The notes under the pieces: model-generated | What the model was told of the DNA's origin: nothing | Databases searched by the model: none | What the model saw: only the letters and a program-made list of their open reading frames with translations | In this document: in pieces, positions 15,618-16,690 of the stretch | How the letters are laid out: each line of letters begins with the position of its first letter | How positions within the stretch are numbered: position 1 is the stretch's first letter | Translations under genes and position numbers: made by a program | NCBI RefSeq assembly: GCF_009914755.1 | Contig: NC_060927.1 | Strand: one strand, 5' to 3' | DNA length: 64,000 nucleotides | Source: the human T2T-CHM13v2.0 reference genome, Homo sapiens

Positions 15618-15642
15618 CAGGCATGAGCCACCGTTCCTGGCC

Positions 15643-15806
15643 CATCTACCACATTCTAGTGGTTAAAGCAATAAGCCAGCTCAGATTCAAGGGGGAAGGG
15701 AAAATAAATCCCACCTCTTTATGGAAGGAGTGGTAGCATCACATCACAGAGGAGTATAGACACAGGGGGATGGCTCTTTGGGGGCCATTATTTTAACGAC
15801 CTACCT
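15643..15806 (-). mobile_element. MLT1G/H-type LTR 5' part (inverted copy)
   Basis: Reverse complement reads ggtaggtcgttaaaataatggccccc...gaggtggga...cttgaatctgagc...agaatgtgg. Confidence 0.75.
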
Positions 15807-16093
15807 TCTGTGTGTCTGCTTCTGTGGACCCCCCAGAACTCTCAGATTCCTCTGATCACATTCTGCCTTTAAAAGTACTGGTGCCATTGTTTTATAGGCA
15901 CTGGATTGGGAACTCCTAAAAGGAGCTCAGTGCCAGTCAAACCGAACTTAGCATAAGCACCCTGGTTCCCCAGTTTGTTATCAATAAACACAGTGAAAGT
16001 TTATTTTTAAGGACAGAAATATTTTTTGTCATATCATCTGAAAAGTCAGTCCCTTCTAGATTAAAGAAGTATAATGCAGCAAAGTGCACATCG

Positions 16094-16690
16094 CTCCTCT
16101 GTGATGTGATGCTACCACTCCTTCCATAAAGAGGTGGAATTTATTTTCCCTTCCCCTTGAATCTGAGCGGGCTTATTGCTTTAACCACTAGAATGTGGTA
16201 GATGGGCCAGGAATGGTGGCTCCTGCCTGTAATCCCAGCACTTTGGGAGGCCAAGGCGGGTGGATCACCTGAGGTCAGGAATTTGAGACCAGCCTGACTA
16301 ACATGGTGAAACCCCGTCTCTACTAAATACAAAAAAAAATTAGTCAGGCATGATGGTTCATGCCTGTAATCCTAGCTACTTGGGAGGCTGAGGCACAAGA
16401 ATCGCTTGAGCCCGGGAGATGGAGGTTGCAGTGAGCCAGGATTGTACCATTACACTCCAGCCTGGGCAACAAGAGCGAAGCAAAACTCCGTCTCAAAAAA
16501 AAAAAAAAAAAAAAAAAAAGAATGTGGCAGATACACAATGTTCAAGTTCTGGAGCCTGCATCTTAAGAGCCCTTGCGTTTTTTTGCTCTTGTCCTCAGAG
16601 ATCATTGCGATGAAGCCCAGGCTAGTTTACCCGCTGGGGGCATGTAATGGACAATTGAGATGCCCTAGCCACAAGCCAGTAGGAGGAGCC
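16094..16690 (+). mobile_element. MLT1G/H-type LTR lacking its 5' end, interrupted by an Alu
   Basis: 'aagaggtggaatttatttt', 'ccttgaatctgagc'; continues after the Alu as 'aagttctggagcctgcatcttaagagccc'. Confidence 0.7.
16205..16519 (+). mobile_element. Alu (AluS)
   Basis: Full dimer, long A-tail, TSD agaatgtgg(t/c)agat. Confidence 0.95.

What the first reader, a model, noticed from the sequence alone, without database searches (positions are those of the whole stretch)
15618..16229. Inversion with a 137-bp inverted duplication across an MLT1/Alu junction
15618-15754 is the reverse complement of 16094-16229, with 5 differences (4 substitutions, 1 indel) and a 339-bp spacer. Both arms contain the same MLT1-to-Alu insertion junction, so they cannot be independent repeat copies. 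Only the left arm continues into the MLT1 5' terminus (15755-15806, minus strand). Only the right arm continues into the full Alu and the MLT1 remainder. Therefore 15618-16093 is inverted relative to the ancestor, with duplication of the junction and loss of most of the left Alu. This resembles replication template switching (FoSTeS/MMBIR). The arms could now form a long stem or dsRNA, or mediate recurrent inversion of the spacer.
Basis: partly seen in the sequence, partly recalled or inferred. Interest (0 to 1): 0.75.

Follow-up and report, generated by a model that had tools for sequence, protein, structure and literature searches.

The report
Retrocopy-linked inverted duplication in old LTR
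A 137-base stretch spanning the joint between a very old retroviral LTR remnant and an Alu is present twice in opposite orientation, and a short poly(A) retrocopy from chromosome 7 sits exactly at the rearrangement joint, so this looks like scar tissue from one ancient LINE-1-driven insertion rather than anything functional.

Summary
Window 15618-15754 is the reverse complement of 16094-16229, with 4 substitutions and 1 indel in 137 columns. Both arms carry the same LTR/target-site-duplication/Alu joint. Only the left arm runs on into the LTR's 5' end, at about 15805-15808.

The LTR is a real, very diverged multi-copy LTR-type repeat. Print places such MLT1 families in the ancestor of placental mammals.

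Directly left of the left arm, 15481-15618 is a 5'-truncated, poly(A)-tailed retrocopy of an RNA from chr7:77.54 Mb. It holds the end of a younger LTR plus an antisense Alu, and is 112/119 identical to that locus with the same joint. Its cDNA strand runs straight into the left arm with 1 base of overlap.

My best reading, at confidence 0.55, is one complex event at a LINE-1 insertion site: a loss of at least 58 bases, a 476-base inverted piece and a 137-base duplication. This kind of outcome has been shown experimentally. The event is about 15-22 Myr old, with a range of 4-40. Spacer orientation and date need outgroup genomes, which were not available.

The parts
15346..15480 (+). Old interspersed repeat, not viral, cut off at the insertion site. 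I recall it as MER20-like; this was not tested.
   Evidence: A motif taken from it has 709 genome matches against 0 for the control. 28 of 29 fetched copies match window 15300-15481 at E<=0.01. In 12 of the 14 copies printed, the family runs on ~55-60 bases past the point where the window copy breaks off. That tail was found nowhere in 14000-19000 on either strand, with 26 copies scored.
15481..15499 (-). Tail of the retrocopy. It reads as TTTCC plus 14 T on the + strand, which is a poly(A) tail on the minus strand.
   Evidence: Read. It directly follows the retrocopied RNA's 3' end.
15500..15553 (-). 3' end of a younger LTR-like repeat ('X'). On the minus strand it ends 15 bases after an AATAAA word.
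   Evidence: The DNA search returned 185 candidates, of which 40 were scored and all matched. A 36-mer has 39 genome matches within 3 mismatches against 0 control. All 22 fetched copies align to 15500-15552 at 83-94%. In other copies (L004, L007) the repeat continues past this end.
15554..15618 (+). First ~64 bases of an Alu in + orientation, which is antisense in the retrocopied RNA. It is part of the retrocopy and is not derived from the local Alu.
   Evidence: Rfam SRP hit at 15555-15645. Window 15500-15618 is 112/119 identical to chr7:77543645-77543763 (L004) across the same X/Alu joint. The exact 24-mer over the joint occurs only in the window and on chr7.
15618..15754 (-). Left arm, an inverted copy. 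It holds Alu bases 1-26 (15618-15643), the target-site duplication (15644-15657) and the LTR piece (to 15754).
   Evidence: Base 15618 is shared with the retrocopy, giving 1 base of overlap at the joint.
15755..15808 (-). 5' terminal part of the old LTR. It is present only on the left.
   Evidence: Searches place the family's 5' boundary at about 15804-15808. One search gives z = 2.4 against shuffles.
15809..16093 (.). Single-copy spacer. It is presumed to be the LTR's original upstream flank, now inverted; the orientation was not verified.
   Evidence: The genome search finds only itself. None of 29 old-repeat copies match it. Control z = -0.7 against LTR copies.
16094..16229 (+). Right arm in the original orientation. 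It holds the LTR piece (16094-16203, including the target-site duplication 16190-16203) and Alu bases 1-26.
16204..16518 (+). Full-length Alu with an A-tail, inserted into the old LTR.
   Evidence: Rfam SRP hits. It is flanked by 14-base direct repeats at 16190-16203 and 16519-16532. It is soft-masked at 16202-16530.
16519..16940 (+). Remainder of the old LTR after the Alu. Homology to other copies is clear to ~16660 and weak beyond. The 3' end was not located.
   Evidence: z = 6.2 for 16532-16660, 2.9 for 16661-16800 and 2.2 for 16801-16940, against 1.5 for the control. One search found no consistent 3' end.

Best explanation
I read this as one complex rearrangement made at a LINE-1 insertion site, some 15-22 million years ago.

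Shown:
- A very old solitary LTR lay here with an Alu inserted in it.
- 15481-15618 is a short, 5'-truncated, poly(A)-tailed retrocopy. Its closest relative, and the only other place with the same joint, is an LTR-with-Alu locus at chr7:77.54 Mb.
- On the + strand the retrocopy's cDNA runs without a gap into the left arm.

Inferred:
- The LINE-1 endonuclease nicked the + strand at about 15480/81, in a T-rich word of an older repeat.
- The T-rich end primed reverse transcription of the chr7 RNA from its poly(A) tail.
- After 118 bases the cDNA end was joined, with 1 base of overlap, to nearby DNA in inverted orientation.
- That join happened in one of two ways. Either the strand went on being copied from the displaced + strand, starting inside the local Alu and running back through the LTR's 5' part and its upstream flank. 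Or the broken 'reciprocal' end was processed, flipped and ligated.
- The outcome is a 476-base inverted segment (15618-16093), 137 bases of it kept a second time in the original orientation, at least 58 bases of the older repeat lost, and no target-site duplication.

The structure has no evident function. It is a fixed scar that happens to form a 137-bp hairpin-capable inverted repeat.
For: - Retrocopy hallmarks. There is a 14-T run plus TTTCC at 15481-15499. On the minus strand an AATAAA word lies 15 bases before the tail. Other copies of repeat X continue past that point.
- Source. The retrocopy is 112/119 identical to chr7 across the X/Alu joint. On chr7 a full Alu sits in X with its own flanking direct repeat. 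The exact 24-mer over the joint occurs in only 2 places in the genome. A minus-strand lncRNA, on the same strand as the retrocopied RNA, spans the chr7 site.
- Position. The retrocopy's truncated 5' end is exactly the left end of the inverted repeat, with 1 shared base.
- Site. The host repeat breaks off in a T-rich word where other copies continue with an A-rich word. A passage in PMC11702581 gives the preferred ORF2p site as 5'-TT/AAAA.
- Loss at the site. The host repeat's last ~58 bases are absent from 14000-19000 on both strands. That excludes a simple two-break inversion of a previously normal insertion.
- Dates. Arms differ at 4/136, giving 15 Myr (4-40). Retrocopy and chr7 differ at 7/119, giving 31 Myr (12-66). 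The two are not significantly different (Fisher p = 0.36). Pooled, they give 22 Myr (11-41) at 1e-9 per site per year.
- Precedent. Passages in PMC11702581 report L1 and processed-pseudogene insertions with inversions of genomic DNA at the reciprocal end, sequences templated from DNA near the site, and inverted duplications at target sites.
Against: - There is no target-site duplication around the retrocopy or around 15481-16093. This is expected if the site was rearranged, but it removes one hallmark.
- The endonuclease site is inferred from other copies of the host repeat, not observed.
- The retrocopy-to-chr7 divergence (5.9%) is twice that of the arms (2.9%). The counts are tiny, but a two-step history is not excluded. 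chr7 may also be a sister of the true source rather than the source itself.
- A third locus, chr1:31.447 Mb, carries a similar joint with 1 mismatch.
- The second new joint (16093/16094) is blunt and says nothing about mechanism.
- The spacer's orientation and the ancestral state are inferred by parsimony only.
- Whether reverse transcriptase, a host polymerase or plain ligation made the inverted piece cannot be told from the sequence.
Confidence: 0.55

Rival explanations
1. Two unrelated events. A normal retrocopy insertion came first. Later an inversion with flanking duplication arose by replication-fork template switching (FoSTeS/MMBIR) or by staggered double-strand breaks, and its left breakpoint happened to fall inside the retrocopy's Alu. 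This is.
For: - The retrocopy-to-chr7 divergence (7/119) is nominally twice the arm divergence (4/136).
- Both sides of the left joint are Alu sequence.
- Inverted duplications are the commonest inversion class in human populations, with a median of 284 bp and mostly 1-15 bp of microhomology, and are ascribed to replicative origin (PMC12350158 passages).
- Inversions flanked by deletions or duplications are ascribed to MMBIR/FoSTeS or to multiple simultaneous breaks (PMC5338099 passage).
Against: - It needs the later breakpoint to coincide with the retrocopy.
- It needs an extra deletion. The rest of the retrocopy, its target-site duplication and the host repeat's ~58-base tail should have been carried to the far end of the inverted piece, and none is found on either strand (sequence left of 16094 read).
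- The divergence difference is not significant (p = 0.36).
- The overlaps at the joints are 1 and 0 bases, which is weak for microhomology-driven switching.
Confidence: 0.22
2. A chimeric retrocopy made at the RNA level. The LINE-1 reverse transcriptase jumped from the chr7 RNA to a local transcript that ran through the flank, the LTR and the start of the Alu. The two-part cDNA was then inserted beside its own template, with a ~400-base target-site deletion.
For: - The orientation fits. Read on the minus strand, the flank-LTR-Alu start is followed by the chr7 RNA and the poly(A) tail, as in two-part retrocopies.
- Insertions holding sequence from two RNAs, ascribed to template-switching reverse transcription, are reported in PMC11702581 (passage).
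Against: - No transcript is annotated at this locus (given annotation).
- The inverted copy lies directly beside its own template, and the original copy of exactly the same stretch is missing. A DNA-level event at the site explains that without coincidence.
- There is no target-site duplication.
Confidence: 0.12
3. An assembly or sequencing artefact, such as a fold-back chimera, in the reference.
For: None from the calls. Reads were not available, so it cannot be excluded directly.
Against: - The arms differ at 5 positions, whereas fold-back chimeras give identical arms.
- The spacer is unique sequence.
- The joints coincide with biologically sensible features, namely the retrocopy end and the LTR.
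Confidence: 0.02

Closest known systems
LINE-1 (ORF2p)-mediated insertions with target-site rearrangement, seen in experimental L1 expression and whole-genome sequencing (PMC11702581, passages read)
   Same: A poly(A) retrocopy of a cellular RNA is 5'-truncated at a T-rich site and lacks a clean target-site duplication. It is accompanied by local deletion, inversion of genomic DNA at the reciprocal end and an inverted duplication. The joints have little or no microhomology.
   Different: This case is an old, fixed germline example, not a cell-culture or tumour event. The retrocopied RNA is the end of an LTR transcript carrying an antisense Alu, not an mRNA or L1. I could not see that paper's supplementary figures S9 and S10, so I cannot say how closely the published structures match in detail.
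Complex structural-variant classes INVdup and delINVdup: inversion with a duplication at one breakpoint and a deletion at the other (PMC5338099 and PMC5829575, passages)
   Same: There is an inverted segment of 476 bases. 137 bases are duplicated at one end, and at least 58 bases are lost at the other.
   Different: The published classes were defined mostly on much larger variants and are ascribed to MMBIR/FoSTeS or to multiple breaks. Here a retrocopy fills one joint.
Small inverted duplications in human populations (PMC12350158, passages)
   Same: The size range matches (median 284 bp there; 137-476 bp here), as does the very short microhomology.
   Different: Those are polymorphic and are read as replicative. 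This one is millions of years old, judged by arm divergence, and is tied to a retrocopy. Whether it is polymorphic was not testable.
Twin priming, which gives a 5' inversion within L1 or retrocopy insertions (cited)
   Same: An inverted segment abuts the 5' end of a retrocopy, made at a LINE-1 insertion intermediate.
   Different: In twin priming the inverted part comes from the same RNA. Here it is local genomic DNA (LTR, Alu start and flank), so the defining feature is not met.
MLT1 solitary LTRs of the MaLR (ERVL-MaLR) group
   Same: It is a multi-copy, strongly diverged LTR-type repeat of roughly 500-550 bases, and copies begin with TG and end with CA in some loci. Print places such families in the placental ancestor.
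   Different: The name itself was not tested against any labelled reference. The subfamily is unknown. In the window copy the first bases are mutated and the 3' end is not located.

Membership tests
MLT1 / MaLR solitary LTR | Sequence similarity to a labelled MLT1 reference (Repbase/Dfam) | not testable with these tools
No tool here holds named repeat models. Rfam gave nothing for the LTR part. A text search for a 13-mer of the core found only an unrelated primer.
MLT1 / MaLR solitary LTR | Member of a dispersed multi-copy family | tested here: met
   The core pattern has 45 genome matches against 0 control. I kept 28 of the 30 fetched loci as family; L107 and L111 were dropped by eye. Summed local scores of window pieces against those 28 copies, relative to 60 shuffles, give z = 13.5 (5' part), 5.6 (between anchors) and 6.2 (16532-16660). 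Controls give 1.5 and -0.7.
MLT1 / MaLR solitary LTR | LTR ends TG...CA and a length of a few hundred bases | tested here: inconclusive
   Family boundaries pile up ~150-165 bases before and ~350-400 bases after the core. At the estimated boundaries, 2 of 16 copies start with TG and 3 of 18 end with ACA. The window copy's first bases are not TG, and its 3' end was not found.
MLT1 / MaLR solitary LTR | Short (5-base, as recalled) target-site duplication flanking the LTR | tested here: inconclusive
   The 3' end is not located, so no pair could be compared. By eye nothing matched.
MLT1 / MaLR solitary LTR | Great age (shared by placental mammals) | tested here: inconclusive
   Outside the anchors, pairwise identity to 11 copies is 0.73 against 0.70 for a shuffled control under permissive gaps. 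The copies are too diverged for pairwise dating, which fits great age but gives no number. The age comes from print only (PMC10735291 passage).
LINE-1-mediated retrocopy (processed RNA copy) | Poly(A) tail at the RNA's 3' end, after a polyadenylation signal | tested here: met
   There are 14 T plus TTTCC at 15481-15499. On the minus strand an AATAAA word lies 15 bases before the tail. Other copies of the repeat read on past this point.
LINE-1-mediated retrocopy (processed RNA copy) | An identifiable source locus elsewhere | tested here: met
   chr7:77543645 is 112/119 identical, with the same LTR/Alu joint. The exact joint 24-mer occurs in only 2 places. It may be a sister of the true source.
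LINE-1-mediated retrocopy (processed RNA copy) | Target-site duplication | tested here: not met
   There is no direct repeat flanking 15481-15618 or 15481-16093. Instead, at least 58 bases were lost.
LINE-1-mediated retrocopy (processed RNA copy) | Endonuclease-type T-rich/A-rich target | tested here: inconclusive
   The window copy of the host repeat breaks off after a T-rich word, where other copies continue with an A-rich word. The ancestral site itself was not seen.
Alu (local, 16204-16518) | 7SL-derived dimer with an A-tail and flanking direct repeats | tested here: met
   There are two Rfam SRP hits, an A-run to 16518, and 14-base direct repeats agreeing at 13 of 14 positions. The subfamily (S-type by recall) was not tested.
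FoSTeS/MMBIR product | Microhomology at every joint and templated segments from nearby DNA | tested here: inconclusive
   The joints have 1 base and 0 bases of overlap. The inverted piece is templated from nearby DNA. A replicative origin cannot be told from sequence.
Twin priming | The inverted part derives from the same RNA as the retrocopy | tested here: not met
   The inverted part is the local LTR/Alu joint plus flank, not chr7 sequence.

The most novel reading that the evidence does not exclude
The inverted arm was synthesised as a direct continuation of the retrocopy's cDNA. The reverse-transcription intermediate switched from its RNA template onto the displaced genomic strand, or onto a nascent local RNA, about 600 bases away and copied it back towards the nick. 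On this reading the locus is a fixed germline fossil showing that LINE-1 insertion intermediates can copy local DNA and so create hairpin-forming inverted duplications. Part of the many small inverted duplications now ascribed to replication errors could then have this origin.
Probability: 0.25. Interest if true: 0.55.

Novelty: new member of a known kind. Interest (0 to 1): 0.35.

Why it matters
The locus itself is a neutral scar in a gene desert about 190 kb from EOMES. No transcript is annotated, and no function is suggested by anything I ran.

Its value is as a worked example. All three new joints are readable and the retrocopy's source can be traced. The event therefore links two things usually treated apart: small inverted duplications or inversions with flanking copy change, generally put down to replication errors, and the target-site damage that LINE-1 insertion has recently been shown to cause in experiments.

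If more such old cases exist, a share of small complex variants in primate genomes would be by-products of retrotransposition. The case also shows that a very old LTR remnant can be dragged into much younger rearrangements. This matters when LTR fragments in opposite orientation are counted as separate insertions.

Tried and rejected
1. My first idea was that 15482-15806 is a plain insertion and that the spacer continues the older repeat (15346-15480) in the same orientation, which would mean no inversion. I rejected it. The spacer matched none of 29 copies of that repeat. The ~58-base tail those copies share was not found anywhere in 14000-19000 on either strand. Best local scores for the 26 copies scored were 10-17 and scattered; 2 copies were skipped for T-runs.

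2. The whole-genome DNA search with the LTR's 3' piece and with the spacer returned only the window itself. That search sees only near-identical DNA, so it says nothing about old copies.

3. nhmmer of the LTR pieces against the 64-kb window found no further copy.

4. A 14-mer from the LTR core gave 74 genome matches against 3 for the control. Only 4 of the 29 fetched loci looked like family members by eye, and only 2 of 29 gave weak nhmmer hits. The control understated chance, so I replaced the pattern with a two-anchor one.

5. Locating the LTR's 3' end in the window failed. The last 140 bases of 14 copies aligned to scattered places with scores of 18-24.

6. The first test of the 5' extension, using local alignment, was uninformative: a sum of 223 against 214.5 +/- 14 for shuffles. 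A semi-global test gave z = 2.4, with at least one of 300 shuffles scoring higher (maximum 23 against an observed 17).

7. Dating the LTR from pairwise distances failed. Identity was 0.73 against 0.70 for a shuffled control.

8. Naming the LTR from print failed. I did not attempt to name repeat X or the older repeat. My recollections (LTR12-like and MER20-like) are untested.

9. I looked for a target-site duplication of the LTR by eye and found none.

10. Supplementary figures S9 and S10 of PMC11702581, which show the published target-site inversions, were not seen because supplements are closed. They may bear on how close the match is.

11. The substitution rates (1e-9 and 0.6e-9 per site per year), the Alu subfamily and all repeat names are recalled, not taken from calls.

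12. The correct figure is 28 of 29, corrected in entry 5.
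Full report
OBSERVATION. The repeat finder reports it as two overlapping pairs that split at the one indel. An alignment of the reverse-complemented left stretch with the right stretch gives a single block of 137 columns with 4 substitutions and 1 one-base indel. It runs 15618-15754 against 16094-16229, with unrelated sequence on both sides. 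As RNA, the region folds with the arms paired end to end, at -365.4 kcal/mol against -188.1 +/- 5.6 for 20 shuffles (z = -31.8).

The right arm has three components: an LTR piece, a 14-base word (16190-16203) that recurs after the Alu's A-tail (16519-16532, 13 of 14 bases equal), and the first 26 bases of a full Alu (Rfam SRP hits). The left arm carries the same three pieces in reverse complement. The arms therefore share one Alu insertion joint and cannot be independent repeat copies.

THE OLD VIRUS REMNANT: REAL, OF WHAT FAMILY, HOW OLD. A two-anchor pattern from the core of the element has 45 genome matches and 0 in the control. Of 30 loci fetched I kept 28; L107 and L111 were dropped by eye.

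I scored window pieces outside the anchors against those 28 copies, compared with 60 shuffles:
- 5' part: z = 13.5
- between the anchors: z = 5.6
- 16532-16660: z = 6.2
- 16661-16800: z = 2.9
- 16801-16940: z = 2.2
- two controls: z = 1.5 and -0.7

Among the copies, homology starts ~150-165 bases before the end of the core and stops ~350-400 bases after it. Some copies begin with TG and end with ACA at those points: 2 of 16 and 3 of 18 respectively. That is an LTR-sized, LTR-like unit of roughly 500-550 bases.

In the window the family's 5' boundary falls at about 15804-15808, inside the stretch that only the left arm has. That stretch matches the 5' ends of 11 copies better than shuffles do (z = 2.4). 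The piece left of the right arm does not (z = 0.1; reverse complement 0.8). The 3' end in the window could not be located.

No subfamily can be given. A Repbase overview lists the MLT1 LTRs under MaLR (PMC5753468, passage).

Age could not be calculated. Outside the anchors, pairwise identity to 11 copies is 0.73 against 0.70 for a shuffled control, so the copies are too diverged for pairwise dating. In print, all MaLR members other than the primate-specific ones, except MLT1A1 and MLT1C2, are found across placental mammals and are absent from opossum (PMC10735291, passage). If the name is right, the LTR dates to the placental ancestor, on the order of 100 million years ago; that figure is recalled.

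Directly left of the left arm lies a short retrocopy. It has three parts:
- 15481-15499 is TTTCC plus 14 T.
- 15500-15553 is the end of a younger LTR-like repeat, which I call X. The DNA search gave 185 candidates, of which 40 were scored and all matched. A 36-mer has 39 genome matches within 3 mismatches against 0 control. All 22 fetched copies align to it at 83-94%.
- 15554-15618 is the first ~64 bases of an Alu in + orientation.

Read on the minus strand this is: antisense Alu, then the end of X with an AATAAA word, then 15 bases, then poly(A). In other copies X reads on past that point, so the window piece ends where an RNA would be cleaved and tailed.

One locus, chr7:77543645, matches the whole of 15500-15618 at 112/119, including the X/Alu joint. 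There a full Alu sits inside X with its own flanking direct repeat. The exact 24-mer across the joint occurs in only those two places. A third locus on chr1 has it with 1 mismatch, in a differently arranged copy. The Alu piece shares chr7's variants, not those of the local Alu. The chr7 site lies inside a minus-strand lncRNA, which is the strand of the retrocopied RNA.

So 15481-15618 is a 5'-truncated poly(A) retrocopy of an RNA from chr7 or from a close sister locus.

THE JOINTS. There are three new joints.
- J0 lies at 15480/81. An older repeat (709 motif matches against 0 control; 28 of 29 copies match) breaks off after a T-rich word. In 12 of the 14 copies printed it continues ~55-60 bases further, beginning with an A-rich word. 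That tail is nowhere in 14000-19000 on either strand. At least 58 bases were therefore lost.
- J1 lies at 15618. The retrocopy's last base is also the first base of the left arm, giving 1 base of overlap. On the + strand the cDNA (poly-T first) runs straight into the reverse complement of the local Alu start, the LTR's first ~165 bases and 285 bases of unique sequence.
- J2 lies at 16093/16094. It is a blunt joint to the LTR at its ~53rd base.

No direct repeat flanks the retrocopy or the whole block.

MECHANISM. The right-hand LTR lacks its first ~52 bases while the inverted copy has them. The most economical ancestor is therefore flank, whole LTR and Alu in + orientation. Today's 15618-16093 is that stretch turned round, and its last 137 bases are kept a second time in place.

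The trigger is more likely a LINE-1 insertion intermediate than a stalled replication fork. Four observations point that way:
- A poly(A) retrocopy sits with its T-run at a T-rich/A-rich site.
- The retrocopy is truncated exactly at the rearrangement joint.
- Target bases were lost.
- There is no target-site duplication.

Passages in PMC11702581 report precisely such outcomes after experimental L1 expression. [quoted passage not shown] The authors ascribe these to processing of ORF2p-made break ends.

The sequence cannot tell whether the inverted piece was copied as a continuation of the cDNA (by reverse transcriptase or a host polymerase) or was a flipped, filled-in fragment. A two-step history, with the retrocopy first and an unrelated inversion-duplication later, needs a coincident breakpoint and an extra deletion. 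However, it is not excluded by the divergences.

DATE OF THE REARRANGEMENT (at a recalled rate of 1e-9 per site per year):
- Arms: 4 substitutions in 136 aligned bases, JC 0.030, giving 15 Myr (95% range 4-40).
- Retrocopy against chr7: 7 in 119, giving 31 Myr (12-66).
- The two do not differ significantly (Fisher p = 0.36).
- Pooled: 22 Myr (11-41).
- A slower rate of 0.6e-9 gives 25, 51 and 37 Myr respectively.
- An event younger than 6.5 Myr would give 4 or more arm differences with probability 0.10.

Gene conversion between the arms would make the event look younger than it is. The event must post-date the local Alu, which I recall as S-type. A passage in PMC10735291 puts AluSc activity near 45 Myr. 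Only outgroup genomes can settle the date, and none was available here.

COMPARISON WITH WHAT IS KNOWN. As a structure this is an inversion with a duplication at one end and a loss at the other. That corresponds to the INVdup/delINVdup classes of complex variants (PMC5338099 and PMC5829575, passages). Its size falls in the range of the small inverted duplications that are the commonest inversion class in 1,019 long-read human genomes: 277 events, median 284 bp, mostly 1-15 bp of microhomology, read there as replicative (PMC12350158, passages). As a process it matches L1-mediated target-site rearrangement. It is not twin priming, because the inverted part is local DNA and not the same RNA.

I file it as a new member of a known kind. 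It is an old, fixed germline example in which the filler retrocopy's source can still be traced.

FUNCTION. None is indicated. No gene or transcript is annotated in the window (given annotation). The nearest annotated genes are lncRNAs more than 50 kb away, and EOMES is ~190 kb away. The 137-bp arms could form a hairpin in RNA or a cruciform in DNA, and in principle could flip the spacer again. Nothing I could run bears on whether that happens.

LIMITS.
- Repeat names, Alu subfamily and substitution rates are recalled.
- Papers were read as passages returned by term searches, not in full.
- Supplementary figures were closed.
- No reads, pangenome or primate genomes were available.

Noticed in passing
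L119 (chr1:31446570-31447593), about 470-800: This is another copy of LTR-like repeat X. It carries an Alu-like ~90-base piece at the same position in X as on chr7 and in the window; the 24-mer over the joint has 1 mismatch. It is followed by the start of X in the opposite orientation. It may be a related rearranged or duplicated locus.
   Followed up: partly
window 15346-15480: This is an old interspersed repeat with over 700 motif matches in the genome. Two fetched loci (L031, L042) match it on both strands, so the unit looks partly palindromic. I recall it as MER20-like, which was not tested.
   Followed up: partly
window 11000-21000: The reference's soft-masking marks only the Alu (16202-16530) and one other stretch (18502-18726). 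The old LTR, the retrocopy and the older repeat are unmasked, so masking-based scans would treat them as unique DNA.
   Followed up: no
window 16257-16468: There are sub-threshold Rfam matches to mir-1285, mir-1268 and mir-3135 inside the Alu. All are well below their gathering scores, and I read them as Alu-derived miRNA families matching any Alu.
   Followed up: no
L004 (chr7:77543145-77544205): The likely source locus of the retrocopy lies in an intron of SRRM3 (+ strand) and inside the minus-strand lncRNA LOC124901679. The X repeat there has a full Alu inserted, with a ~13-base flanking direct repeat.
   Followed up: partly
genome-wide search: This is a method note. The reversed-pattern control for a 14-mer (74 matches against 3) suggested strong enrichment, yet only 4 of 29 fetched loci were family members by eye. 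That control can understate chance matches for short words.
   Followed up: yes
window 15554-15578 and 15618-15642: The retrocopy's Alu start and the left arm's inverted Alu start form a second, small inverted repeat: 25 bases, 80% complementary, 39 bases apart (pair I9). It is a by-product of the joint.
   Followed up: no
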